Notes: a model not told the origin generated them from the letters alone. DNA of 14,751 bases from Amoebophrya sp. A120 (GCA_905178155.1 CAJINV010000044.1:1-14751), one strand, 5' to 3'; shown: positions 1 to 14,751, numbered from the stretch's first letter. Numbers and translations: made by a program.

Positions 1-616
1 TCCCGCGCCGTCCTGGGATAAACCTCCACCACGGGCACAGAAGTGGCGCCTATCCCCGCGCGAAACCAAACAGGCTGGGGCGGTGGCTTTCGTAGGTTTA
101 TCCCAGGCCGCCCCGGGATAAACCTCCACCCCGGGCAGAGCAATGGGCTTTATCCCCGTGCAGAGCAGGCGGGGGGGATGACAAACTGTCGTAGGTTTCT
201 CCCAGGCCGTCCTGGGATAAACCTCCACCACGGGCACAGAGGTGGTGCTTATCCCCGCGCGAAACAGGCTGGGGCGGTGGCTTTCGTAGGTTTATCCCAG
301 GCCGCCCCGGGATAAACCTGCACCACGGGCACGGCGGTGGGCGCTATCCCCATGCGAGACAGGCTGGGGGGATGCCTGTCGTAGGTTTATCCCGGGCCCT
401 CCTGGGATACATAAACCTCCACCACGGGCACAGGAGTGGGGTCTGTCCCCGCGCGCGCAAAACAGGCTGGGGCGGTGGCTTTCGTAGGTTTATCCCCGGC
501 CGCCCTGGGATAAACCTCCACCAAGGGCACAACAGTGGGACTCGCCCCCATGCAAAACAGGCTGGGCGGGCGCCTGTCGTAGGTTTATCCCAAGCCGCCC
601 CCCCTTGGATAAGCCT
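1..616. repeat. GC-rich tandem array, ~95-103 bp units (about 6 visible, may continue left of the window), alternating A/B units, hairpin at each unit junction
   Basis: GGGATAAACC or a variant recurs at about 15, 115, 214, 309, 404, 507 and 607. Junctions read AGGTTTATCCC-N~10-GGGATAAACCT (inverted repeat). Units 1/3/5 contain GGCGGTGGCTTTCGTAGG; units 2/4/6 contain CTGTCGTAGG. Confidence 0.92.
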
Positions 617-1145: not shown

Positions 1146-2487
1146 AGACCTCGAAGTAAGTCAAGCACTCGATGATCAAGTCACGGCTGGTAGTCGAAAG
1201 TACAATAGCAGCTTCCGCCACTGTATGAGATTCCACAATTCCCCCTCCCCCTGATTTGAGAAGTGGGGGGCATGAACAGCAACACAAGCTAGCAGTAGTA
1301 GAAGCAGAACTGAAAGAAGTTCTGTGGCCTCCGCATGACAAATCATAATCAGCAAACAGGCAGTGACTAGGTTGGGACTTCGGAAAGCTGTCATGCAAGC
1401 AGTGCGGAGAACTACAACCTTGAGTTGGTATTTTGCATGACAAATCATGATGAGGCGGAGGGGGGGTTGCGCAGTCTCATACGATGTGCCCAGGGTTGCT
1501 CCGTGGACACCAAGATCTTTGCGAAGGTCGTATGTTTGCCCGGTTGGAAATTTGCTTCTCCCCCGGACGGCAGCGACCAGTCGCCCGGCTGTGGCTTGTT
1601 TGACTTGGTAGAGGTGGTAGACGGGCTTGGCGTCGACAAACCCACCAGGAAGTAGCTTCGATCTTGTCGCAAAAATATCCATATGCAAATGTGCCTGGGG
1701 AAACAAAAATTTGCGTACCTTAGGGCTTCTACGAGATCTGTAGTGCATAAATTGGAGTGGAGAACTTGTTTGTCATGCTCAGATGAGCATGAGCACTGCA
1801 GGAAATAACATTCAATTCTCGGAAGGGCAGTTTGTCATGCGTGTATGCGTTTCTACTTTATATTAGTTGTTCACCAGGTACAACTACATCCAAAAAAAAA
1901 TATAGTACTTCCGTTAACGCAAGGAGCAGCAAGACAAATCATCTATATCGTACCAGACCCAGACACGTTTGCAGCTCGTAACACGTTACGACGAGCAAAC
2001 TTATCACTCCTAGTCCTCCGCTCGGGTCGGCAACTAGGCACATCGGCCGCTGGTTAGACTCTGCAGATTTAACGACTTGGTTCGCATCGACGCTTAGCGG
2101 CCTGCAACTTTCCCTGCATCGCCCCCTGCTGTGACATCTATTTCCGGTGAGCAGCCGAACTACTGCTCCGATGCTGCTGCTCCTCGGTGTAGTTGATGTT
2201 TGTTTTGTTGAAGTAGACCCCGGATTGCTATCCAGCGAAGATGAAGAAACGGACGACGAGGTGGACGCTACTTCTGCAACCGGTGTCCACGTGCTTGCTG
2301 GTTGTCTCGGAAATTCGGTACTTTCCGCGAAGTCTAGGACTTTCACCACTGGTTCGCGTAACTGCTCCTCAAGGATGTTCGCAGTGTCACTTCTACGAAC
2401 GGAAACGCTATGCATCGCAAACACGTAGTTGTCTAGATACGGAAGAATCCTCCGGGTTTGTGATGTGCAACTAGGCGGGGGTCCTCG
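1146..2487 (-). CDS. Hypothetical S/T-rich protein, partial spliced model with exons 2487-1981, 1675-1482 and 1223-1146
   Basis: Removing 1676-1980 (+5 nt) and 1224-1481 (+5 nt) joins three open frames: ...GLGVISLLVVTC/ATRSKLLPGGFVDAKPVYHLYQV...GATLGT/VAEAAIVLSTTSRDLIIECLTYFEV. The frame opens right after the acceptor-like TTACTTTTACTAG (2500-2488). Start and end are unresolved. Confidence 0.55.
1224..1481. mobile_element. TIR element / putative introner, family F (258 bp)
   Basis: Left end TATGAGATTCCACAATTCCCCCTCC; reverse complement of right end TATGAGACTGCGCAACCCCCCCTCC. Flanks CACTG/CGATG (3/5). GCATGACA motifs at 1333, 1389 (reverse) and 1435. Confidence 0.75.
1676..1980. mobile_element. 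Degenerate TIR element, family A-like (305 bp)
   Basis: Left TATCCATATGCAAATGTGCCTGG; right CCAGACCCAGACACGTTTGCAGCTCGTA. TGTCATGC at 1771 and 1833. TSD decayed (AAAAA/ACACG), but removal plus 5 nt keeps the frame. Confidence 0.6.
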
Positions 2488-2684: not shown

Positions 2685-3846
2685 AGCTTTTTTCTGCCCC
2701 ATCACCATTACATTCTGCGAAGAACAAGTGTCTGATCGAGACACTTGGAGAGCAGAAAAGTGGTTCTTGCAGAACTTTCAAAAAAGAGAATCAGTTCGGT
2801 GGAGCTGTTCTAAGTCTATTTTTGCATGACAAATTATGCCAAAAATCCCAAACCCAAAGTTTGAGCTTTTTTCTGTCCAATCAGCACTACATTCTGCGAA
2901 GAACAAGTGTCTGATCGAGACACTTGGAGAGCAGAAAAGTGGTTCTTACAGAACTTTCAAAAACGAGAATCAGCTCGGTGGAGCTGTTCTAACTTTATTT
3001 TTGCATGACAAATTATGCCAAAAATCCCAAACCCAAAGTTTGACCTTTTTTCTGTCCAATCACCATTACATTCTGTGAAGAACAAGTATCTGATCGAGAC
3101 ACTTGGAGAGCAGAAAAGTGGTTCGTGCAGAACGTTCAAAAATGAGAATCAGCTCGGTGGAGCTGTTCTAAGCCTACTTTTGCATGAAAATTTATGCCGA
3201 AAATCCCAAAGCCGAAATTTGAGCTTTTTTCTGTCCAATCACCATTACATTCTGCGAAAAGCAAATGTCTGATCGAGACACTTGGAGAGCAGAAAAGTGG
3301 TTCGCGCAGAACTCTCAAAAATGAGAATCAGCTCGGTGGAGCTGTTCTAAGTCTACTTTTGCATGGCAAATTATGCCAAAAATCCCAAACCCAAAATTTG
3401 AGCTTTTTGCTGTCCAATCACCATTACATTCTGCGAAAAGCAAATGTCTGATCGAGACACTTGGAGAGCAGCAAAGTGGTTCGCGCAGAACTCTCAAAAA
3501 TGAGAATCAGCTCGGTGGAGCTGTTCTAAGTCTACTTTTGCATGGCAAATTATGCCAAAAATCCCAAACCCAAAATTTGAGCTTTTTGCTGTCCAATCAC
3601 CATTACATTCTGCGAAAAGCAAATGTCTGATCGAGACACTTGGAGAGCAGCAAAGTGGTTCGTGCAGAACTTTCAAACATAAGAATCAGCTCGGTGGCGC
3701 TGTTCTAAGTCTACTTTTGCATGTCAAATTATGCCAAAAATCCCAAAGCCGAAATTTGAGCTTTTTTCTGTCCAATCACCATTGAAGAACAAGTGTCTGA
3801 TCGACACATTTGGAGAGCAGAAAAGTGGTTCTTGCAGAACTTTCAA
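2685..3846. repeat. 179-bp tandem satellite, about 6.5 copies
   Basis: The ATGCC anchor recurs at 2836, 3015, 3194, 3373, 3552 and 3731 (exact 179-bp period). Units are highly similar; the last partial unit lacks ACATTCTGC. Internal hairpins CAAGTGTCT-GATCG-AGACACTTG (2725-2747) and CAGCTC-GGTG-GAGCTG. Confidence 0.97.
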
Positions 3847-4527
3847 GTTGAACAAGAATGCCTTGACATTAAAAACGTACGCAACATCGATGGTCGCCAG
3901 GCAGTGGAGACGAGCTCCCACAGTTTTTGAGGTTTCCTTGCATCACATCAGGGTTTCAAAGTAGTGCCACAACTTGCGATTCTCGTTCTCACATTGACAT
4001 TTTAGAATTTATTCTAGGGCGTGAAGTTCGCCTCACGAAGAAGCGCAATTTCAAGTAGTTCAAAGTAGTTCTACATACAAACAGCTACACTCGTTCCTTC
4101 CTTTCCCGGTGAAGCGAACCCCAACCGGTCTATCCATTTTACATTTTGACTTTAGCATACTTCCATCAAAATCGCAGAACTTCCTTACAATCCTGTGGAT
4201 TTCCGCATCAATGATCCATCTTCATCGTTGTCCAGTTTCATTTCACATTCCAGCAGTCCAGCTCCGTTTTTTAATTTTCCGACTTTGGTCGTTGCAGGGT
4301 GCAAAAACAGCGAGGACGGAAAGCGTGTTGGATCGTCGGAACCCGGTTTGGTTACCTACCAGTTCCGGGACGGAAATTTCCCACTCGTCAGCACCAACCC
4401 GAGGCTGTCGGAGAGTTGTCAAATTGAAAGATACAGTATTGAAGTCACACGTGCAGGTGCACCGGGGAATTGTTGTATATTTCATGCGAACATCATATTT
4501 CAAGAATTTATGAAAAAAAAACACTAT

Positions 4528-5334
4528 TTACCCGATCGCCACTAGCAACACCACAAACACAGATCCCAATCCCCAGTAAGACGTGGCGTTTTTTACCGTT
4601 CCGGTTACTGCAATTTGTGCTCTGCTTTTAATTTCCTCATGAGAACTGCAACGCGTGGTTTTCGAACTACTCGCTCCCCCGTCGAGCCGGGGCTCTTGCT
4701 CACGATCGACTGCGGGTTCGAGAATTGTGACCTCCTTGTGCAGCTTCTTCTCGACAAAGTTCAAAACCTTCATGTCGTCATTTTCAACTGCGCATCCCTG
4801 CGGCTCAGAGCTCCCCCTCCCGCGAAGTGCGGTGTCGATGTTTTCCACGAGATTCTTCAGGTGCTTCTGCCTCTCTTGGAACGACCACACGTTCGACAGG
4901 CCCCAGGCTGCAGAGGCATCAGTCTTCCTGCGCATGTCCTGGTTGAAAAGAAACACCTCCAGCTGGAAAATCTGGTCCCGCAACGCCGCTATCCACTTCT
5001 CCAGCGCCTCCAGTTGCAGTGTGTGCAGTCGGCGAGTTCGCGCGTCCGTGATCTTGCTCACAATGTCCTCGTGCACCCCCCGCTGTTGTACGAAATCCTG
5101 TTCAGCGTGCGCCAGCAGAGGCCACAGCCACTGACACTTCTGAATCAGCGTCTCCAGATCCGTGGCACTGTTTTCTAGTCTTTCGGAGCGGTTCACTTTC
5201 CATGCCACGTCTCCGACGCAGTGCAAGAGGTCGGAGACGTCATTCTTGTTCCGAAAGATACTGTTGTACGTGCGGGCGTAGAGGATCTGTTCGAGTGACT
5301 TCGAGAATTCTTTGTTTGCCCACTTAGTATCCAT
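4528..5334 (-). CDS. Hypothetical 268-aa helical protein with C-terminal hydrophobic (tail-anchor-like) segment, paralog 1
   Basis: ATG in an A-rich context, intact ORF. Shares blocks with the 6493 ORF (TDARxRRLHTLQLEALEKWIA, MKVLNFxEKKLHKEVTILEPAV). Ends GLGSVFVVLLVAIG*. Confidence 0.85.
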   Translation of the reverse strand: MDTKWANKEFSKSLEQILYARTYNSIFRNKNDVSDLLHCVGDVAWKVNRSERLENSATDLETLIQKCQWLWPLLAHAEQDFVQQRGVHEDIVSKITDARTRRLHTLQLEALEKWIAALRDQIFQLEVFLFNQDMRRKTDASAAWGLSNVWSFQERQKHLKNLVENIDTALRGRGSSEPQGCAVENDDMKVLNFVEKKLHKEVTILEPAVDREQEPRLDGGASSSKTTRCSSHEEIKSRAQIAVTGTVKNATSYWGLGSVFVVLLVAIG

Positions 5335-6492
5335 TCTTTTTCTTTATCTTCTCGGGGTCGAGAAACAACGAACTGCAAAAAAAACCACGGTGAGTCTCCG
5401 CTAAAACTTCTTCCTGTACTATATTTGGACAAATAAGAATAACAACACTCTTCGTGGCGGCCCGCATCAGTTACGGCGGAAAAAAATTTATTTAATGCCG
5501 TGTTCCCTTACTAAGCGAACGGTGTTTGAGATTCAAATTTGAATTCAAAGCGTCGACACGGCAAAATCTCTCGCCCAAAAAACTTTTATCGCTCAGCAAA
5601 CACCACCAAAGCAAAACCTCTCACAATCCTTATCTGCGTTTCAGGCTCTGCTTTGGTTCAAAACAAAACAAAACAAAAGCGACAGGATGGTACCGAGCGA
5701 GATAGGCGAAATGTGAAGCTAAAAAACGACAGAACGCGACTGCACGCCAGAAACATTCGGTGGTCTAGTTGCCATGCCAGAGCGTCAACCCTGAACCTCC
5801 TAAACGTCGACTCTAGTTTAATAGTCACATCAGAATCGCAATAGCGACGCTTCGGTAGCTAGGAGAACTACCGTGTTTCATAAGGCAGATTTTCTTGTTA
5901 GCTCTCGTCAGGAGTTTGAAGTAAGTACTATCAATCTCGTCGCTATTCTGATATTTCAGAACTTGGTCGCATCACGACCAATAAACGCAAGCTTAAAGCA
6001 GCTTCGGCACAACACTAGTTCTACATTGAAACAGCTATCTATCAATGAACTACCTACACTCGTTCCTTATCTTCCCCACCGGTCTAAGCATTTCACTTTT
6101 TATACTCATACATCCATATTTACTCTATACACTTCATCGATTTTCAGCAAAATTTCCGTGCACTTCATCTTCGAACTTCCACATCATTCCGTCGTGTTCA
6201 TCGTCCAGTTTCATTTCACATTCCAGCAGTCCAGCTAAATTATTCAAGTTGAAGTTTCCGACTTTGGTTCTTGCAGCATTCAAAACCAGCAAGGAAGAGG
6301 TTCTTGATCGTCGAGACCAGCGCTACCAGTTTCGGGGGAGAAATTCCCCCTTCGTCAGTTGTAGCCACCCGAGCCTGTTGTATAAAAGAGTTGTGACGTT
6401 GAGAGACCCACCAGTAAGTATCAAAATTCTGGTGCGTGCAGGAACTTCATGCGAACATATTTCAACATTTATTTAGGAAAAAAAGTAAGTCC

Positions 6493-7352
6493 TTACCCAA
6501 TCGCGACTAGGACCAGCAGCGCCGCAAACACGAAGCCCGCTCCGAACGTGGCGATCGCCGTCCCGGTAACCGCAACTTTCCTCTTTGTTTCCACATCACC
6601 GCCCCGCCGCGTGGTATCCTCGGTAGTTGTGGAATGGTCAAGCGGTTCTTCTTCCTCCTCAACTGCGGGTTCGAGAATTGTGACCTCCTTGTGCAGCTTC
6701 TTCTCGAGAAAGTTCAAAACCTTCATCTGGTCATTATTACGTTTCCCCCACCCGCCGAACCCAACATCTACAAAGCTGCAACTGTTCCCGCGCAGGGCCT
6801 TGTGAATGTTGTCCAACAGGTACCTCAGCTGTTGGTATATTCTAGAAAGGTTCAACATCCCCAGGGTGGCCGCAGTCTTTTTTGCAGCTCTTTCGAAGCG
6901 GAAACTACCCCCGTCTGTTCCCACGGGGAAACCCTGTTCCTCGTTGACAAGACACACCTCCAGCTCAAAAATCTGGTCCCGCATGTCCGCTATCCACTTC
7001 TCCAGTGCCTCCAGCTGCAGAGTGTGCAGTCGGCGAGCTCGCGCGTCCGTGACGCCACTCACGATCGCGTCGTGCTTCTCTCGCCATTGCTGGAGGGTTA
7101 CAACTATTCCCGCTACATCGCTCCACACCGACCGAGCCTTCATAATCAGCCACTCCACGTCCTTCCGCAAGCTGGACGAGACGGGGGCCATCCTCGCTCT
7201 TCGCACTATTCCTTCAATTGCTTGCAGCAGGTCGACGACGCTTCCCTCCAGGTCCGCTTCACCAAAGTGATTTTCACCAAAGACTTCTTGTTGAGGAACT
7301 CCCACAGGTCACTTTCAATTTGCTGAGAGTTGCCATTCCACTCCATATCCAT
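6493..7352 (-). CDS. Paralog 2 of the tail-anchored hypothetical protein; 5' frameshift (pseudogene, tiny intron or sequence error)
   Basis: Main frame 6493-7305 is homologous to 4528-5334. The homologous start AAAATGGATATGGAGTGG (MDMEW vs MDTKW) lies at 7352 in another frame, and the main frame has TGA at 7311-7309. Confidence 0.75.
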
Positions 7353-8147
7353 TTTTCTGTAGTTCAGTCCTCAGGGAACAAGCCCTGCGCAATTTGGGCA
7401 GACAACTAATATCATAGAAACGGCAAAAAAAAAGATTAACGACGGCGAATTTCTACAACATTTTTTTTGGACAAGAAAGTTCATCCTATGGATTGAGGTT
7501 AAGATTGAGAAGACTGCCAACTACAACAAGTTTCTCGAACGATAAAACGAGAACGAGAAGATAGAACCAAGAAATCCTGTACTGTCGAACTTGACGAAGT
7601 GAGAAGCGTACAACCATAAAAGCTCCCTCGTCTCTCCGCTCTACTCTTTCGTCTTTCTCTTTATGTAAGCCGTATAATATTGTTCCGTTACGTGTCGAAC
7701 ACTGTTGAGGGGTCAAACTCAATAATCTACTTGTGCAGTCATGGGACCACTTCTGAGTGGTCTAAAAGGAAACTAATTATACAGAACCATAAAGGTCGTC
7801 GAGCAGACTTACACATTCATCAATACGACTTGGTCATGCTCGATGGAGAATCGAATTTGGAAATTAATTGTACACGAAGATCTTCTTGATCAGAACCGTT
7901 ATTCCCAAAGAAGTAGTAGGAGTGCTGACAACGTAAAATCATACACCGATGGCACGACAGAGCGCGTTTAAGGTTATCATACATTTTCAAAAGACAACCG
8001 AAAATAAAATAGATCGGGATAATAGTAAAAGTAAAATTCCTACGCGCATTAATGATTTTGTCATGCGTGGAGAGGCAGTTCGTCTTCTTCGAGCTCAACC
8101 AGCATAATTCAGAATCATCTTACACAATGCGGTGTGCTCGTCCTCAA

Positions 8148-8467
8148 TATCAAAAGGAAAAATTCCCCCACCCCATATCAAAAGAAGTCTCTGATGCTGG
8201 ATTTCAGTACACAAATCAGATTTGTCTTGCAGTAGAGGACTGCAGGCATACGCAAAGCCTGAGCCGCGATGTTTTGGCGTAGGCTCCTAGCATGAAAAAC
8301 GTTGACGGTGTAGGCCCAACAGCATCACAAACCGCCTGCACAATGCGGCGGATTCTCTGCATTTGCCTGCATGCAAGACAGACAGGATTTGTGGTCACAA
8401 ATCCGCATCACAGATTTTCAGAAGGATGCGCTTTCAATATGGGGAGGGGGGATTTTTCCTCACAATA
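8148..8467. mobile_element. TIR element family B (320 bp)
   Basis: TATCAAAAGGAAAAATTCCCCCACCCCATAT...ATATGGGGAGGGGGGATTTTTCCTCACAATA; perfect TSD CTCAA/CTCAA. Confidence 0.93.
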
Positions 8468-8522
8468 CTCAAAACTTGTTGTTCCACCCAACTGGCGATC
8501 CGATTAGACTCGATCGCCAGGA

Positions 8523-8731
8523 TATGCAAGAAAAAAACGTTGTTAATGTAAATCTGTGATGCGTAACATGCAAGATGATTGCGCTTGTCATGCTTGGCAT
8601 GCATCGCAGGGTCTATTAAAGGATGTTTTCACGTTCTATCTGCGCATGACAGGTTTTTGCTGTCATGCCAGACAAGTTTGTAATGCTTCTCCTCCAAAAA
8701 AGTTACACCTACAATGTTTTTTTCTTGGATA
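8523..8731. mobile_element. TIR element family G (209 bp)
   Basis: TATGCAAGAAAAAAACGTTGT...ACAATGTTTTTTTCTTGGATA; perfect TSD CAGGA/CAGGA; several GCATGACA/TGTCATGC motifs. Confidence 0.9.
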
Positions 8732-8926
8732 CAGGACCTCCCCTCGACCTGCTCCTGCCGCCGATAACTGCTAGCCGCCCAGGAGGGCGCTCAGAGCCAA
8801 TAACTGGCACTCACGAATCATACAGTACAACACTACAACCACCAGATGCTGGCGGCGTTAATAAGGAGTAATCGTGGTAGCCTACAACTTGAGGATTTAT
8901 CATCCTTTCAGAAGTACGAGTGCCGA

Positions 8927-9242
8927 TATGGGGGTGTCAGGATTGAAATCGTTAAAGTTGAAATAAGTAGTTTCTCATGCATAAAATGCAGCCCACAAAG
9001 CGCCGGTCTTGCGGAGTAGGCAAGTGAGGCAGATGTAAGCCTGTTGAGGGGTAGAAACTGAGGTGCTAAAGTAGCATGACAAAAGGCGCCTTCCTTTGCC
9101 AAACAGCATGACAAACTGGATTTCAGGTCTACCCAAATTTGTCATGCGCCAATTGGAACCTGGGTCACAGCAACTTATTTCATCCATTCTATGCATTGCA
9201 AGTTCTTTCAACTTTGTCGATTTCAATCCTGACACATCCATA
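8927..9242. mobile_element. TIR element family D (316 bp)
   Basis: TATGGGGGTGTCAGGATTGAAATCGTTAAAGTTGAAA...TTTCAACTTTGTCGATTTCAATCCTGACACATCCATA; TSD GCCGA/TCCGA (4/5). Confidence 0.9.
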
Positions 9243-9305
9243 TCCGAGTTTTTTATCCTGCTCCGTCAGAGAATTGACAGTTCCTCATCGTTCCCATGTT
9301 CCCGT

Positions 9306-12300
9306 TCACGGCTGTTGTGTAGAAGTAGCCTGTTGCGTAGCCTGGGTGGACGCGCGTTGACCACGGGGTCTTCTCATGCCTGCGGCAACTGATCGCATCG
9401 TGTCTCTCATCGATCGCCCTGCCCTTCGTGCAGCGTTCCCAGCACTTGTGCGGCTGCGCCTTGCCGATTCTCCTGCGCTCCGCGCAATCCTCACGAAAAA
9501 AGCGCGCAGTTGCCGGAGGCTTTCCTGAAACTGTTCCGCGGCTGCGCTGCTAGCTCTCCCGAGGCGTTGTCTCGCGCTCGTCATGCCGGACCGAATAGCT
9601 GCACCAGTCGGTCTATTGATTGCAAATATGTCTGAGTCTGGAAGATTGCTGGTGCAAGTTGTCATGCTAAATATAGAATCATACAAAAAATCTGTGTTGC
9701 GTGAATACCAAAAGCTGCAGTCCACGTTCGACCAAAATGAGAGCGAGTTTCTCATGCAGGATTTCCATGACTGAGACCTCACAAAACCTGTCATGCTAGG
9801 TCCCGCACTCCAGACCTCCTGGGTACATGGAAAACCTGCATGACAAAGCTTGCATTCTTGCAACCCCAGACATATTTGCAATCCATACGGTCGCAGCAAG
9901 CGATCTCGCACCGGGCGTCCTATCCTGAGTAAAAACGTCCCCAACGTGTAGTCAAGATGGGGATCATAATTTTGCAACAACAACCTAGACGTCTTGGGGG
10001 TTACACATGACAGGTCGCAATCCGTGGTCGTGTAGTGCAGATTAGAGAGGACAGTCGCATCATAAATCCATTTTCTCATTCTGTTTACAGCATTACGAAT
10101 TCCAAAACATGACAGAGAATGGCTCTCATGATGGGGATAATGCGCATCACAAATGGTTTTGGAATTGCAAATCTGCATGACAACTACTGCGTGGGGACGT
10201 AGTTTTCACCCAGGATACGTCCGACAGCTGCGCCAGTCCTGTAAGCAAACCCGCCAACTGCTCTGGCTCCGCTCGCAATGCCTCTGCCCGCTGCTTTGGC
10301 TCCGATCGCAATAGCACCACTCGCTGCTCTGTATCAAGTGCAAAAGTGTCTGGCTCTGGAAACTTGTGATGCGGGTAGGACAATCATGAGGACGCCCCAA
10401 CTTGCAGCTCCGCATGACAAGTCTCTGGGTAGTACCTACGGTGTTGCGTATTCTGCATGACAGAGCGCGTTCCTGCATGACTGAAAAATAGGGCTTTTGG
10501 GTAATGTGCATGACAGACTTGGGAGTCATGCTAGCAGTGCATGACAAGTCTCAGAATCTTCCAGACCCAGACATTTTTGCAGTCCATACTCTGGCTCCGC
10601 GCGCAACAGCACCACGAACTCTTCTCAGTCCCCGCACTACCTATTGTGAGGAAAAATCCCCCCTCCCCATACCAGAACGGGATACTTCTCAAAATTTGTG
10701 ATGCTGATTTGAGGTCACAAATCGTCTCTGTATTGCAAGAAGAGAAATAAAAAAACCCCGCCGCGTTCTGCAGGCAATTTGTCATGCTGTCTGGCCTACA
10801 GAGAATGTCCCTACCTTGCTAGGCGCCTACGCCAAAACAGCCCTATTCCGGCTATGAATCTGTCTGCAGTCCTCTACCGCAAGAGAAGGCCGATTTGTGT
10901 ACACAAATCCCGCATCACAGATTTTCATTTCGATATGGGGTGGGGGGATTTTTCCTTTTGATACTACCGGGGGTCCAACCACGGCGCCGGCCGCGTAAAC
11001 ACCATCTCTAGCTGCGCGGTATGCATTGCAAATATGTCTGCGTCTGGAAGCTGTCATGCTGTTTTTGCACGACACAGAAGGTCTGGCATGGAAGCCCTGG
11101 CGTCACAGATTTCGAGAAGGTTTTGCAATGCCTAATCCGCATGACAAATCCCCAACTTTGGTGAAGACGAAAAGTGGGCAACACCTTTTGCTGTCTATGC
11201 ATGAGAGATTTCTGTGTGTTGTGAAATGCGCATCACAACTCCACATCCTTCGAGACCCAGACATTTTTGCAGTTGATACGCGGCCCGCCTGCGCAACGCC
11301 TCTGCCGACGTGCGCCAAACCTCTATCCCAGAGAAAAAACCTGGCAGGGCATATTTGTAATGCAAAAACAAATACACACTAAAACTTGTCATGGGTGGCC
11401 CCATAGCATGCTGTTTCGGATTTGCAATGCATATTTTTTTGTGTATTTATTTTTGCATGACAAATATGCCCTGCCAGCTTTTTTCTGTGTGATAACCTCT
11501 GCCTGCTGCTTTGGCTCCGGTCGCCACACCTCTGCCTGCTGCTCTGGCTCCGGTCGCAATAGCACCACCCGTCGCTTGCAGCGCTCTGCCCGTGCAGGCT
11601 GCCGCCCGACCGGCCGCATCGCAAACCATCGCCACCGGCGGACGGATCGCTGCGCGAAGGCGGGAGAGAAAAAGCCCGACCATTCGGCCAAACGCCACCA
11701 TCGCGGGCCACATGTAATCACGGCCGAGAGTCCCGATGGCGCTCCCGACAGTCGTGATGGCTCTCCCGACAGTCCTGAGCGCACAGAGCAATCCGGACCA
11801 CATGGCAGTTGCGGCGCTCGCCAACCTGCGCCACAGCCCTCTCGCGGCCGCTCCGCCCAACTCCCCGGCTCTTCGGGCGATGTTTCCGGCGATATTGAGG
11901 AAAGAGATCGCGGCCCGGGAGATCCCGTGTACGACGAATTCCACAACGGGGGCGCCGAACGCCACAGCGCGCCGAATGCCACTTTCCGCAAGACCGAAAA
12001 GAAAGCCGCCGGCTTGCCAAATAGCGTCTCCGAGTGCGATATGCAATGCAAATATGCCTGGGTCATCTGGACTTTTTGTTATGCGACATTTCAAGGGCAA
12101 CAAGATGGATCTGTAATGCATGAACAGAATTGGCCATTTTTTTTGTCGTGCTGAAAGCCAATTAGTCATGCGTTTCGCGAACGAATCTGCGATAAGCCTC
12201 GCAAAATTTCTATATGCTGTATATGCCGTACAACAAGTGGCCACTCTACTGCGCTGCGAGCCGTTCGGCAACACAGATTTATGATTCCAGACGCAGTAGA

Positions 12301-14751
12301 CATATTTGCAGTTTGATAAGCGACCATTCCCGTGCCCAATCGCCTGATGCCGCTTGCCACAAGTGTGCCGAGAGGAGAGAGCACGTATGTACGGGTGTAT
12401 TGTGAGGAAAAATCCCCCCTCCCCATATCGAAACGAAGTCTCTCACGCTGGATGTCCGTACACAAGTCAGAGCTGTCTTGCAGTAGAGGATTAGAGGCAT
12501 ATGCCGTGCCTGGGTACAGAGCTTCTGGCGTGGACGCTTAGCATCACAAACGTCTATGCTGTAGCCCAAGCAGCATCACAAACCGCGCGCATAATGCGGC
12601 GGAGACTGTAGAGCTGCCTTCTTGCAAGACAAATGGGTTTTTTTTGTGACCTCAAATCACCAACACAAATTTGCGGAGACATACCTTTTCAATATGGGGA
12701 GGGGGGATTTTTCGTTTCAATAAGGTCCACCTTGCCGCGCTCCACACCGCGTTCCCGACGTTTTGTGCAACCACTTGGACCGCCGCCAGTCCCCTCACCG
12801 CTGCCGCTGCAATACCGTTAAACACGATAACCGCTCCGCTGGCGAACAAGTTTCCTACCCTGGTGAGCACGTCCCACAGCACTGCTCCCATAGCGACAAG
12901 GCCGTGCAGAATCGGCCTGCCGAGGTTGTTGTACAGAGTATTGAGAGGAAAAATCCCCCCTCCCCATATCGAAAAGGCATGCTTCCGGAAATTTGTCTTG
13001 CTGATTTGAGACCACAAATCACGTCTGTCTTGCAAGAAGACAAATGCAGAGGCTTCCCTGCCATTATGGGAGCGGTTTGGCATGCTGTTCGGCCTAGAGG
13101 ACAGCCGTTTGAAATGCTAAGCAACTAGACCAAAATGTCCCTCCCTAGGCTGCGGATCTGGCTGCGATGCCGTATTGCAAGACAGCGCGTATTTGTGTAC
13201 GCAAATCTTGCATCACAGATTTCCCATTTGATATGGGGTGGGGGGATTTTTCCTTTTGATACAGAGCCTGCCCTACCCGCTGCGCCGCATTAGCGACAGA
13301 CACCAACACGGTGGCGATCCCGCTGCCGACCCATCCGGCCGCCCTTTATCAAGTGTAAAAATGTCTGGGTCTGGAAGATTGCCAGGTTTGTCATGCACAT
13401 TTTGCATGACTCCTGATGTCTGTGATGCATGCCCTAGCATCACAGATCTTGTGAGGGCTTCCAGATGCCTATACCGCATGACAAATGCTCTTTCCGTGTA
13501 GCAAAACTTGGACTCTCTTTGCTGCTAAAGCAATACAGATTTTTTCAGAATCCAAAATCAGCATGACAAGTTGGATTCTTCCAGACCCAGACATTTTTAC
13601 TTTTGATACCCTTCCGACGTTGACAAAACCCGTCCACACCGCCTGCGCCAACGTGGTGACCAAGCTGCTAAAGGCCAGCACAAAGTTGCTCCCGAACGCC
13701 AGCAGCTGCGGCGTGATCCGGCGGGCGACCCGCGCTGCCCCGCGCCACAGAAACACAATGGCCTCCGGGAGGCAAACCACCGCCAGGTGCGACAGGCCTT
13801 GAACGCTGATGCTGATCAGGTACACCACCGTAAACAGAACCGTGAAAGCCCCCCGCAAGGCTTTGGTAAAAAATCTTATCAACTGCAAAAAATGTCTGGG
13901 TCTGGAAGATTGCCATGTTTGTCATGCAGGTTTTCTGTGGCTCATAAGGTTTACAATGCAGCACCTAGCATGACAAAGTCTGTGAGGTCTCTATCATGGC
14001 TATCCTGCGTGAGAAATTCCCTCTCAACCTGGTAAAAAAGGACGGCTGTTGGTAATCACGCAATACAGATTTTTTGCATGATTCAGATTTAGCATGACAA
14101 GTTCCAATTCTTCCAGACCCAGACATATTTGCAATGCATACATCTTTGCACAAGACCACTCGGTCTCGGGGCGATAGGCTGGTGAACACCTTGTCGATCC
14201 TGCGGAAGAACCTCCCCTACGAGGGGCTGGGCGGCGGGGTTCATGCTAGTTGCTGGCTCTTGCAGTGCTTCTTCAACATCCCCTTGTTCATCATCATCGC
14301 CCCCCAGGCTAAGCCAAGGCCGGAATTGGCCACATTGCATCTGACGCTCGCGCTCGGGCTGGTCCTGGTCCTCCCCACGACCCTGGGGCAGACGGCGGTC
14401 GGGCTGGTGCTGGTCCTCCCCCTGGGGCAGATGACCTTCTTGCATGAAAGATACCCCGGCGGTGTCCATGCGGTCGACGTCCTCAGGATCGTTGGGAAGA
14501 TCAGCAGCTGTTGAACCGTTTTGCCCCTCGCCGCTGGCAACAACCTCCGCCGCTCGATGGTACGCGGCGTGTGCATCTGCCACGGCCCGACCAACAATCT
14601 CTTCCAGTGCAGCGGCGTCGACATCGACGGCGGGGGCGGCTGTCGTCCCGTTCAGCCGGGGGTTTTCTCGTTCCGGATGTTGAACAACGCTAGTACCAGC
14701 AGGTCCATCACCAGGTTGTAGAGCTTGGCTAACCGCCTGTTGACTAAGATC
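9306..14751 (-). CDS. Large hypothetical protein, 5'-truncated by the window (at least 785 aa), split into 12 exons by 11 TIR elements
   Basis: Segments including both TSD copies: 14751-14141, 13876-13609, 13346-13262, 12938-12723, 12397-12319, 12039-11495, 11323-11279, 11019-10964, 10641-10589, 10331-10218, 9920-9888, 9613-9306. Removing each element plus 5 nt (3088 nt in total) leaves 2358 nt = 786 codons with no internal stop, ending TGA at 9308-9306. Acidic Q/P-rich N-part, a hydrophobic segment, then A/G/R-rich 11-mer repeats. Confidence 0.9.
9614..9887. mobile_element. TIR element / putative intron, family A (274 bp)
   Basis: TATTGATTGCAAATATGTCTGAGTCTGGAAGA...CCCAGACATATTTGCAATCCATA; TSD CGGTC/CGGTC. 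Opposite orientation to the 13347 and 13877 copies. Confidence 0.93.
9921..10217. mobile_element. TIR element / putative intron, family E (297 bp)
   Basis: TATCCTGAGTAAAAACGTCCCCA...TGGGGACGTAGTTTTCACCCAGGATA; TSD CGTCC/CGTCC. Confidence 0.9.
10332..10588. mobile_element. TIR element / putative intron, family A (257 bp)
   Basis: TATCAAGTGCAAAAGTGTCTGGCTCTGGAA...TTCCAGACCCAGACATTTTTGCAGTCCATA; TSD CTCTG/CTCTG. Confidence 0.93.
10642..10963. mobile_element. TIR element / putative intron, family B (322 bp)
   Basis: TATTGTGAGGAAAAATCCCCCCTCCCCATA...TATGGGGTGGGGGGATTTTTCCTTTTGATA; TSD CTACC/CTACC. Confidence 0.93.
11020..11278. mobile_element. TIR element / putative intron, family A (259 bp)
   Basis: TATGCATTGCAAATATGTCTGCGTCTGGAAG...CTTCGAGACCCAGACATTTTTGCAGTTGATA; TSD CGCGG/CGCGG. 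Confidence 0.93.
11324..11494. mobile_element. TIR element / putative intron, family C (171 bp, mostly palindromic)
   Basis: TATCCCAGAGAAAAAACCTGGCAGGGCATATTTGTAATGCAAAAACAAATACACA and its near-perfect reverse complement at the right end; TSD ACCTC/ACCTC. Confidence 0.93.
11495..11570 (-). repeat. 33-bp coding tandem repeat (11-aa unit ARAAGRGVATG), with a related block at about 10258-10331
   Basis: ACCTCTGCCTGCTGCT(T/C)TGGCTCCGGTCGC occurs twice, 33 bp apart. CCTCTGCCCGCTGCTTTGGCTCCGATCGCAATAGCACCAC occurs near 10281. Confidence 0.8.
12040..12318. mobile_element. TIR element / putative intron, family A-like, diverged (279 bp)
   Basis: TATGCAATGCAAATATGCCTGGGTC...AGACATATTTGCAGTTTGATA; TSD TGCGA/AGCGA (4/5). 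Confidence 0.88.
12398..12722. mobile_element. TIR element / putative intron, family B (325 bp)
   Basis: TATTGTGAGGAAAAATCCCCCCTCCCCATATCGAAA...TTTCAATATGGGGAGGGGGGATTTTTCGTTTCAATA; TSD GGGTG/AGGTC (3/5). Internally the same orientation as 8148, opposite to 10642 and 12939. Confidence 0.92.
12939..13261. mobile_element. TIR element / putative intron, family B (323 bp)
   Basis: TATTGAGAGGAAAAATCCCCCCTCCCCATATC...GATATGGGGTGGGGGGATTTTTCCTTTTGATA; TSD CAGAG/CAGAG. Confidence 0.93.
13347..13608. mobile_element. TIR element / putative intron, family A (262 bp)
   Basis: TATCAAGTGTAAAAATGTCTGGGTCTGGAAGA...TCTTCCAGACCCAGACATTTTTACTTTTGATA; TSD CCCTT/CCCTT. Confidence 0.94.
13877..14140. mobile_element. 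TIR element / putative intron, family A (264 bp)
   Basis: TATCAACTGCAAAAAATGTCTGGGTCTGGAAGA...TCTTCCAGACCCAGACATATTTGCAATGCATA; TSD AATCT/CATCT (4/5). Confidence 0.93.

What the first reader, a model, noticed from the sequence alone, without database searches (positions are those of the whole stretch)
9306..14751. One intact gene hidden under 11 MITE-like inserts that must be removed without GT-AG signals
Seen: 11 elements with TAT...ATA inverted termini and 5-bp direct repeats (8 perfect, two 4/5, one 3/5) fill about 57% of this span. One rule (delete the element plus one TSD copy) gives 786 contiguous codons with no stop, and the peptide style is continuous across junctions (...AKAAGRG/LAHVGRGVAQAGR/AARDGVYAAGAVVGPPV/VRGLRRVRGAVARGAR/AASGAIAIGAKAAGRG...). 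Copies within a family are clearly diverged, yet the exons carry no stop or frameshift. Only the 10642 and 11324 elements can be slid to a GT-AG pair at the precise length. Inference: the gene is under selection and the inserts are removed precisely, either as non-canonical transposon-derived introns or by DNA excision. Known analogues are the inverted-repeat/direct-repeat introners of the parasitic dinoflagellate Amoebophrya, euglenid nonconventional introns and ciliate IESs. I cannot tell whether these families are already described.
Basis: partly seen in the sequence, partly recalled or inferred. Interest (0 to 1): 0.95.

Follow-up and report, generated by a model that had tools for sequence, protein, structure and literature searches.

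The report
Amoebophrya transposon introns, already published
An expressed gene of the marine parasite Amoebophrya A120 carries 14 small transposon-like inserts that stay in the DNA but are missing, to the base, from transcript-like contigs; this is a vivid case of an intron type published for this organism in 2021, likely spliced using a hairpin instead of the usual AG end signal.

Summary
The 11 TAT...ATA elements and their 5-bp direct repeats are at the stated places. Removing each element plus one repeat copy gives 785 sense codons and a TGA stop. Three more elements lie in the 3' UTR.

Contigs of an RNA-like run match this splice model at every anchor checked. A DNA-like run keeps the elements, unbranched, at single-copy depth. 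Removal is therefore most likely RNA splicing, not DNA excision.

The two neighbouring genes encode annotated Amoebophrya sp. A120 proteins letter for letter. The element ends fit the A120 introner motif of Farhat et al. 2021 at 24 of 28 ends. So the system is already known.

Small additions from this locus: four imperfect repeats put the cut inside the repeat, at least one base before TAT. That gives a GT start in 10 of 14 introns but never a 3' AG. Elements are spliced in both orientations. Unrelated families share a subterminal motif. The protein has no detected homologue and is predicted to be a long amphipathic helix. The splicing machinery remains open.

The parts
7776..14751 (-). Expressed gene, 15 exons in the window. 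Its 5' part lies beyond the window (the RNA-like contig runs on for 872 nt). Coding to the stop at 9306-9308, then a spliced 3' UTR of about 670 nt.
   Evidence: (X3 records 9 and 11)
14142..14751 (-). First exon in the window; acidic region of about 203 codons. Exon borders here assume the cut one base before TAT.
13877..14140 (.). Element, family B, 264 nt, repeat 4/5; junction seen directly as adjacent contig pieces
13610..13872 (-). Exon, 263 nt
13347..13608 (.). Element, family B, 262 nt, repeat 5/5
13263..13342 (-). Exon, 80 nt (length fixed by contig coordinates)
12939..13261 (.). Element, family A, 323 nt, repeat 5/5
12724..12934 (-). Exon, 211 nt
12398..12722 (.). Element, family A in the opposite orientation to 12939, 325 nt, repeat 3/5; confines the cut to 1-4 bases before TAT
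12320..12393 (-). Exon, 74 nt (length fixed by contig coordinates)
12040..12318 (.). Element, weakly like family B, 279 nt, repeat 4/5
11496..12035 (-). Exon, 540 nt; predicted helical, amphipathic
11324..11494 (.). Element, 171 nt, repeat 5/5; can slide to GT-AG
11020..11278 (.). Element, family B, 259 nt, repeat 5/5
10965..11015 (-). Exon, 51 nt (fixed jointly)
10642..10963 (.). Element, family A, 322 nt, repeat 5/5; can slide to GT-AG
10590..10637 (-). Exon, 48 nt (fixed jointly)
10332..10588 (.). Element, family B, 257 nt, repeat 5/5
10219..10327 (-). Exon, 109 nt
9921..10217 (.). Element, 297 nt, repeat 5/5; a retained form appears in the RNA-like run at depth 4
9889..9916 (-). Exon, 28 nt (fixed jointly)
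9614..9887 (.). Element, family B in the opposite orientation to 10332, 11020, 13347 and 13877; 274 nt, repeat 5/5
9244..9609 (-). Exon with the last 100 codons, TGA stop at 9306-9308, start of the 3' UTR
8927..9242 (.). Element in the 3' UTR, 316 nt, repeat 4/5; junction seen directly
8733..8922 (-). 3' UTR exon, 190 nt
8523..8731 (.). Element in the 3' UTR, 209 nt, repeat 5/5
8469..8518 (-). 3' UTR exon, 50 nt (length fixed by contig coordinates)
8148..8467 (.). Element in the 3' UTR, family A, 320 nt, repeat 5/5
7776..8143 (-). Last 3' UTR exon; the RNA-like contig ends at 7776

Best explanation
These are Amoebophrya A120 introner elements: small transposon-like inserts with TAT...ATA inverted ends and a 5-bp direct repeat that stay in the genome, are absent together with exactly one repeat copy from transcript-like contigs, and are likely removed by RNA splicing on a modified spliceosome guided by a predicted hairpin between the two ends. 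Shown: the DNA anatomy, the exact length removed, retention in DNA, removal in both orientations and in the 3' UTR, and a cut inside the repeat at the four junctions where it can be mapped. Inferred: (1) insertion by a cut-and-paste transposase with a 5-bp staggered cut, probably binding the shared subterminal motif GCAT[G/C]ACA; (2) pairing of the inverted ends brings the two repeat copies together in the pre-mRNA; (3) the cut falls about one base before TAT, so the repeat's last base plus TAT often gives a GT donor, while the 3' site is set by distance from the stem (4 nt past ATA) rather than by AG. Confidence is about 0.93 for identity and RNA-level removal, about 0.6 that the spliceosome does it, and about 0.35 for the fixed one-base register.
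For: Organism: P0003 (window 4531-5334) is 100% identical over its length to a protein named Amoebophrya sp. A120, and both neighbouring genes reproduce their A120 proteins exactly through one GT-AG intron each. Motif: 'TAT, seven bases, three or more A' (PMC7789003 section 11) fits 24 of 28 ends; the paper's Fig. S19 legend shows 5-bp direct repeats. RNA: X3 record 11 matches the model at 8 of 8 anchors, and record 9 at its listed piece ends and its 1031-nt length. X3 has depth 0 at 7400-7645, where the DNA-like run has 53.6. DNA: X1 contigs at depth 43-48 cross 18 of 28 borders without a break at the exon side (9 with 31 or more letters on both sides); elements 9921 and 12040 lie whole inside single contigs. 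Hairpin: mean pairing probability of the ends is 0.60-0.92 in 14 of 14. Keeping any one of 10 of the 11 coding-region elements gives an early stop. G precedes TAT in the sense strand in 10 of 14 (p 0.004 against exon G content), while the mirror C after ATA occurs in 4 of 14. A120 has nearly all spliceosomal proteins (PMC7789003 section 10).
Against: That X3 is RNA is the tool's guess, and only 1 of the 4 RNA-like runs was laid. Only 2 of 14 junctions appear as adjacent pieces; the other 12 are fixed in pairs or groups by length. Contigs drop rare variants. No lariat, branch point or machinery evidence was obtained. 4 of 14 introns would start TT or AT at this register and are still removed, so GT is not required. 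The G bias and the repeat-mismatch bias were noticed after looking at 6 registers and 2 ends; the sense-versus-mirror contrast is only p 0.057. At this register the first four bases of the 3' repeat copy are intronic and should drift, yet they mismatch less (1 of 56) than the last base (4 of 14; p 0.005), which the model does not explain. U1 snRNA was not found in A120.
Confidence: 0.9

Rival explanations
1. Same elements and RNA-level removal, but by a non-spliceosomal or separate machinery (an endonuclease and ligase reading the stem, or a euglenid-like second system) that needs the two repeat copies to be identical. This differs from the best explanation only in the machinery.
For: No register gives a shared AG (0-4 of 14 in each). 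U1 snRNA was not found. The first four repeat bases are very well kept (1 mismatch in 56). Splicing works in both orientations. Euglenid non-conventional introns with TIRs leave as circles, not lariats (review PMC11282704 section 6).
Against: The strand-specific G before TAT suggests a GT donor. GT-xx ends are among the commonest listed A120 non-canonical types (Table S4). Nearly all spliceosomal proteins are present. In Fritillaria, TIR/TSD introns are reported to be excised by the spliceosome.
Confidence: 0.35
2. Programmed DNA excision, like ciliate IESs: the elements are cut from the DNA of a transcribing stage or nucleus.
For: Transposon-like ends and repeats; precise removal with one repeat copy. 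The life stage of the DNA-like run is unknown.
Against: DNA-like contigs run through 18 of 28 borders at single-copy depth without branching. The element-free form appears only in a run with no coverage of the flanking silent stretch, and that run also holds a minor element-retaining contig (depth 4). The genome paper found these junctions from RNA-seq on the assembly. Recalled, not tested: no separate germline nucleus is known in this lineage, so excision would be inherited.
Confidence: 0.03
3. A cDNA artefact: reverse transcriptase jumps between the direct repeats across the hairpins, and the real RNA keeps the inserts (dead gene or pseudogene).
For: Strong hairpins flanked by short direct repeats are the known setting for template switching (recalled).
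Against: The spliced form dominates (depth 79-195 against 4). All 14 removals would have to occur together. Retention gives early stops for 10 of 11. The joined frame has 100-degree amphipathic periodicity at z 12.9, against at most 3.1 in the other five frames.
Confidence: 0.03
4. Ordinary GT-AG splicing at sites near the elements.
For: 10642 and 11324 can slide to GT-AG, and the neighbouring genes use GT-AG introns.
Against: 12 of 14 have no GT-AG at the length that the RNA-like contigs require.
Confidence: 0.02

Closest known systems
Amoebophrya sp. A120 introner elements / non-canonical introns (Farhat et al. 2021, PMC7789003)
   Same: Same organism; TAT-N7-AAA inverted ends (24 of 28); direct repeats at the borders; 171-325 nt (paper: about 240 nt mean for non-canonical introns); lower GC than exons (0.37-0.49 against 0.59); predicted hairpin; multi-copy families; RNA-supported removal; canonical introns at conserved positions next door.
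   Different: No difference in kind. The text I read leaves the exact border unknown and does not discuss orientation, 3' UTR copies, the G bias or the shared internal motif. I could not see the figures (logos in Fig. 3, S19-S25) or the family sequences, so these may be shown there.
Amoebophrya A120 introners in Gozashti et al. 2025 (PMC12130899)
   Same: Reports diverse TIR-transposon introners in A120, with tens of introns in single genes.
   Different: Families here were not matched to their numbered families (datasets not seen). No transposase ORF was seen in these short elements.
Polarella and Symbiodinium introner-like elements (bioRxiv 10.1101/2020.10.14.339549)
   Same: TSD-flanked; some classes work in both orientations; class 12 (5-nt TSD) can build its donor from the TSD's last G plus the element's first base.
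   Different: The classes described in the passages I read carry or recruit recognisable splice sites (AG acceptors; GT, GC or GA donors). Here no AG is shared.
Fritillaria borealis non-canonical introns and euglenid non-conventional introns (review PMC11282704)
   Same: MITE-like TIR and TSD introns with non-GT-AG ends; a stem brings the ends together.
   Different: Other lineages and other end motifs (AG-AC/AG-AT in Fritillaria; CAG...CTG pairing and circular products in euglenids).
Ciliate internal eliminated sequences (recalled)
   Same: Transposon-like inserts in coding DNA, removed precisely with one repeat copy.
   Different: IESs are removed from DNA. Here the DNA keeps the inserts.

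Membership tests
Amoebophrya A120 introner elements | Located in the Amoebophrya A120 genome | tested here: met
   Both neighbouring genes encode A120-named proteins exactly
Amoebophrya A120 introner elements | Inverted repeat of 8-20 nt or more at both intron ends | tested here: met
   15-28 of 30 terminal bases complementary in the 13 elements listed; ends pair in folding for 14 of 14
Amoebophrya A120 introner elements | IR motif TAT + 7 nt + at least AAA | tested here: met
Amoebophrya A120 introner elements | 3-5 nt direct repeat over the exon/intron borders | tested here: met
   5-bp repeats, 65 of 70 positions match
Amoebophrya A120 introner elements | Removed from RNA with non-GT-AG ends | tested here: met
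   X3 contigs fit the model; 12 of 14 have no GT-AG at that length. RNA status of X3 is the tool's guess, backed by zero depth at 7400-7645.
Amoebophrya A120 introner elements | Repeated, in families across the genome | tested here: met
   Two families inside the window (60-78% identity); 19,522 contigs of the DNA-like run laid on the stretch, piling on elements (not a copy number)
Amoebophrya A120 introner elements | Assignment to one of the 1,954 published families | not testable with these tools
   Family sequences are not in the supplement text seen
MITE (non-autonomous TIR transposon) | Short, TIRs, TSD, many copies | tested here: met
MITE (non-autonomous TIR transposon) | Cognate autonomous transposase | not testable with these tools
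   No genome held; PMC7789003 reports none found in A120
Canonical U2 intron | GT...AG ends | tested here: not met
   2 of 14 can slide to GT-AG
Spliceosomal intron of any kind | Lariat with a branch point; snRNP dependence | not testable with these tools
   Needs lariat sequencing or inhibitor experiments
Ciliate-type IES | Element-free DNA in a somatic genome | tested here: not met
   DNA-like contigs unbranched across 18 of 28 borders; one run only, and rare forms would be dropped

The most novel reading that the evidence does not exclude
The apparent chaos of Amoebophrya A120 splice sites hides one simple rule: cut one base before the TAT stem (usually making a GT donor from the target-site repeat) and four bases past its ATA end, with no AG. 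A spliceosome that measures from an RNA stem, perhaps via a factor binding the shared GCAT[G/C]ACA motif, would let any transposon of this type become a clean intron in either orientation. Imperfect repeats make the rule testable genome-wide from existing RNA-seq.
Probability: 0.3. Interest if true: 0.7.

Novelty: already known. Interest (0 to 1): 0.2.

Why it matters
The system is remarkable but published: more than 60% of introns in this organism are non-canonical, and 29,850 are introner copies in 1,954 families (PMC7789003). The finding rediscovers it from raw sequence, which shows the scan works. What remains open is how these introns are cut without AG and apparently without U1 snRNA. 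This locus points to a cheap way in: junctions with imperfect repeats reveal the true cut site. All four here agree, a GT donor emerges at that register in most introns, and orientation does not matter. If that holds genome-wide it turns an unexplained list of splice dinucleotides into one structural rule.

Tried and rejected
No whole genome is held for this window, so no genome-wide test of register, orientation or transposase was possible.

RNA runs X9 and X10 (raw reads, same species label) put no reads on the exons at 92% likeness, only partial matches inside elements (169 and 71 reads laid). They look like another strain or species and say nothing on expression.

No homologue of the host protein was found. 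Word-index searches of longer proteins with two exon peptides gave none (weak evidence by the tool's own note). phmmer of the 180-aa exon against 1.84 billion representatives gave 0 hits. Pfam gave no match above cut-off in 7 peptides. ESM Atlas top scores were 0.83-0.87, below the useful level, and were rejected. So dN/dS was not measured.

The internal 11-residue repeat showed no synonymous bias (2 synonymous, 8 non-synonymous codons), so it gives no support for selection. The single-sequence fold was all helix at low confidence (pLDDT 57), so no fold search was run. Rfam gave 0 hits. An exact look-up of P0003 failed because the annotated protein has a further exon. Three searches of earlier scan findings returned nothing.

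A fixed register with both GT and AG was rejected. Uniform deletions of element+2, element-4 or element+8 also keep a long frame, so the open frame fixes only the phase. The contig coordinates fix +5.

Full report
Verdict.

Observation. The eleventh, 12040-12318, was placed by hand. The direct repeats are 8 perfect, two 4/5 and one 3/5 for the 11; over all 14 they match at 65 of 70 positions. Removing each element plus 5 bases gives 785 sense codons and a TGA at 9306-9308 on the minus strand, open at the window edge. Random junction phases gave a fully open frame in 14 of 3000 trials. Only 10642 and 11324 slide to GT-AG. Keeping any single element gives an early stop in 10 of 11 cases; 9614 reads through in frame.

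RNA evidence. Eleven runs were listed and four were laid on 7400-14751. In X3, which the tool guesses is RNA, a 2899-nt contig (depth 79) carries window pieces 11494-12035, 12724-12931, 13609-13872 and 14142-14751 at record positions that equal the model at 8 of 8 anchors. A 1031-nt contig (depth 195) carries 7776-8142, 8732-8922 and 9244-9608, again at the predicted positions, so the three extra elements are spliced from a 3' UTR of about 670 nt. The predicted end of that contig (10247) equals the end of a 339-nt element-retaining contig at depth 4, and the long contig's predicted start (10218) overlaps it by 30 bases, as expected at a graph branch. Limits: only two junctions (8927, 13877) are seen as adjacent pieces. 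Eight more elements have one border seen as a piece end. The short exons are fixed by exact length sums. X3 has depth 0 at 7400-7645, where the DNA-like run has 53.6, which fits RNA. X9 and X10 did not cover the exons and are uninformative.

DNA evidence. In X1, eight listed contigs at depth 43-48 with no other letters run from exons into elements across 18 of 28 borders (9 with at least 31 letters on both sides). They break inside the repeated element ends, not at the exon side. Elements 9921 and 12040 lie whole inside single contigs. A common element-free DNA form would have broken the contigs at the repeats. X1 may be the window's own source, contigs drop rare forms, and 648 joints were not shown, so stage-specific excision is unlikely rather than excluded.

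Identity. The ORF at 4531-5334 is 100% identical to a protein named Amoebophrya sp. A120, and its paralogue is the second of the two hits. Both annotated proteins are reproduced exactly from the window through one GT-AG intron each, at 4405-4531 and 6375-6496. Farhat et al. 2021 (PMC7789003; I read the abstract, sections 5, 10, 11, 12 and 16, passages, and supplement parts 2-3, but no figures) report 65% non-canonical introns in A120 and 29,850 introner copies in 1,954 families. These have inverted repeats, 3-5 nt direct repeats, and an A120 end motif of TAT, seven bases and at least three As. That motif fits 24 of 28 ends here. Gozashti et al. 2025 (PMC12130899, passages) note tens of introner introns in single A120 genes. 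Two reviews repeat this (PMC11282704, passages and section 6; PMC11453091, passages).

What this locus adds. (a) Cut site. At the four imperfect repeats the contig piece ends show that the mRNA takes the last repeat base from the downstream copy (4 of 4) and, at 12398, the first base from the upstream copy. The cut is thus 1-4 bases before TAT there and 1-5 at the other three. This reading rests on piece ends reported with zero other letters, not on raw reads. (b) At one base before TAT, 10 of 14 introns start GT and none ends AG; no other register exceeds 1 GT or 4 AG. G before TAT is above exon G content (p 0.004) and is not mirrored on the other side (4 of 14; contrast p 0.057), which points to splicing rather than target preference. 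These tests were chosen after seeing the data. (c) Repeat mismatches fall on the last base (4 of 14) more than on the first four (1 of 56; p 0.005), which is unexplained. (d) Two families occur in both orientations relative to the transcript and are removed either way. All 14 are predicted to pair their ends. (e) The motif GCAT[G/C]ACA or its complement occurs 37 times in 3878 nt of elements (0.23 expected, at most 3 in 500 shuffles; once in 3112 nt of exon), mostly 32-55 nt inside the ends, and across families that do not align. The Farhat text says the border relative to the hairpin is variable or unknown. Six literature searches showed no later paper on the mechanism. The library lacks most subscription journals, the 2023 Current Biology dinoflagellate introner paper was not available (I saw passages of a related 2020 preprint, with no mention of Amoebophrya), and figures or datasets that I could not see may already show (b), (d) and (e).

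Mechanism. Shown: anatomy, exact length removed, retention in DNA, both orientations, removal in the UTR. Inferred: insertion by a TIR transposase with a 5-bp staggered cut; a stem that joins the intron ends; cutting within the repeat so that one copy is left and the coding sequence is restored; the spliceosome as the machine, because nearly all its proteins are present and a GT donor is favoured, although U1 snRNA was not found and 4 of 14 lack the GT. A separate stem-reading machinery is the main rival. DNA excision, template-switch artefact and nearby GT-AG splicing are each unlikely, for the reasons given in the rival list.

Host protein. No homologue was found. After an acidic region (net charge -22 over 203 residues), residues 204-785 are basic and rich in Ala, Gly and Arg, with hydrophobic periodicity peaking at 100 degrees (z 9.2, 6.8 and 4.9 by segment; z 12.9 overall against at most 3.1 in the other five frames). 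A low-confidence model of one exon is all helix. My best guess (about 0.5) is a long amphipathic membrane- or lipid-surface-binding helix, working like perilipin or apolipoprotein repeats (resemblance recalled, not tested). The periodicity supports a real constrained protein; dN/dS was not measurable.

Score. Already known; interest 0.2. The residual value is a genome-wide test of the cut register.

Noticed in passing
window 1224-1481: A fifteenth TAT...ATA element (258 nt, 20 of 25 terminal bases complementary, direct repeat 3/5) with the shared motif; its gene context is unknown.
   Followed up: no
window 4356-5334 and 6323-7191 (minus): Two tandem paralogues (42% identical), both annotated A120 proteins of unknown function, with a hydrophobic C-terminal tail and one canonical GT-AG intron at the same position (4405-4531, 6375-6496). 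They carry no introner elements, in contrast to the gene next door.
   Followed up: partly
window 2685-3846: 179-bp tandem repeat, 6.5 copies, 92% matches. Two units carry the exact GCAT[G/C]ACA motif that the elements share, hinting at a link between satellite and elements.
   Followed up: no
window 7-600: 95-99 bp GC-rich tandem repeat, about 6 copies; each unit holds a short palindrome with TATCC...GGATA ends.
   Followed up: no
window 11381-11421 and 14071-14130: Raw RNA reads of runs X9 and X10, which do not match the exons, match short parts of the elements at about 90-95%, suggesting related elements are transcribed in another organism under the same species label.
   Followed up: no
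window 10258-10331 and 11495-11557: 33-nt (11-residue) coding repeats in two exons separated by four elements; they fit the amphipathic helix period.
   Followed up: partly
window 9306-10205 (minus): Element 9614 plus one repeat copy is 279 nt and stop-free in frame, so its retention would add 93 residues rather than truncate the protein.
   Followed up: no
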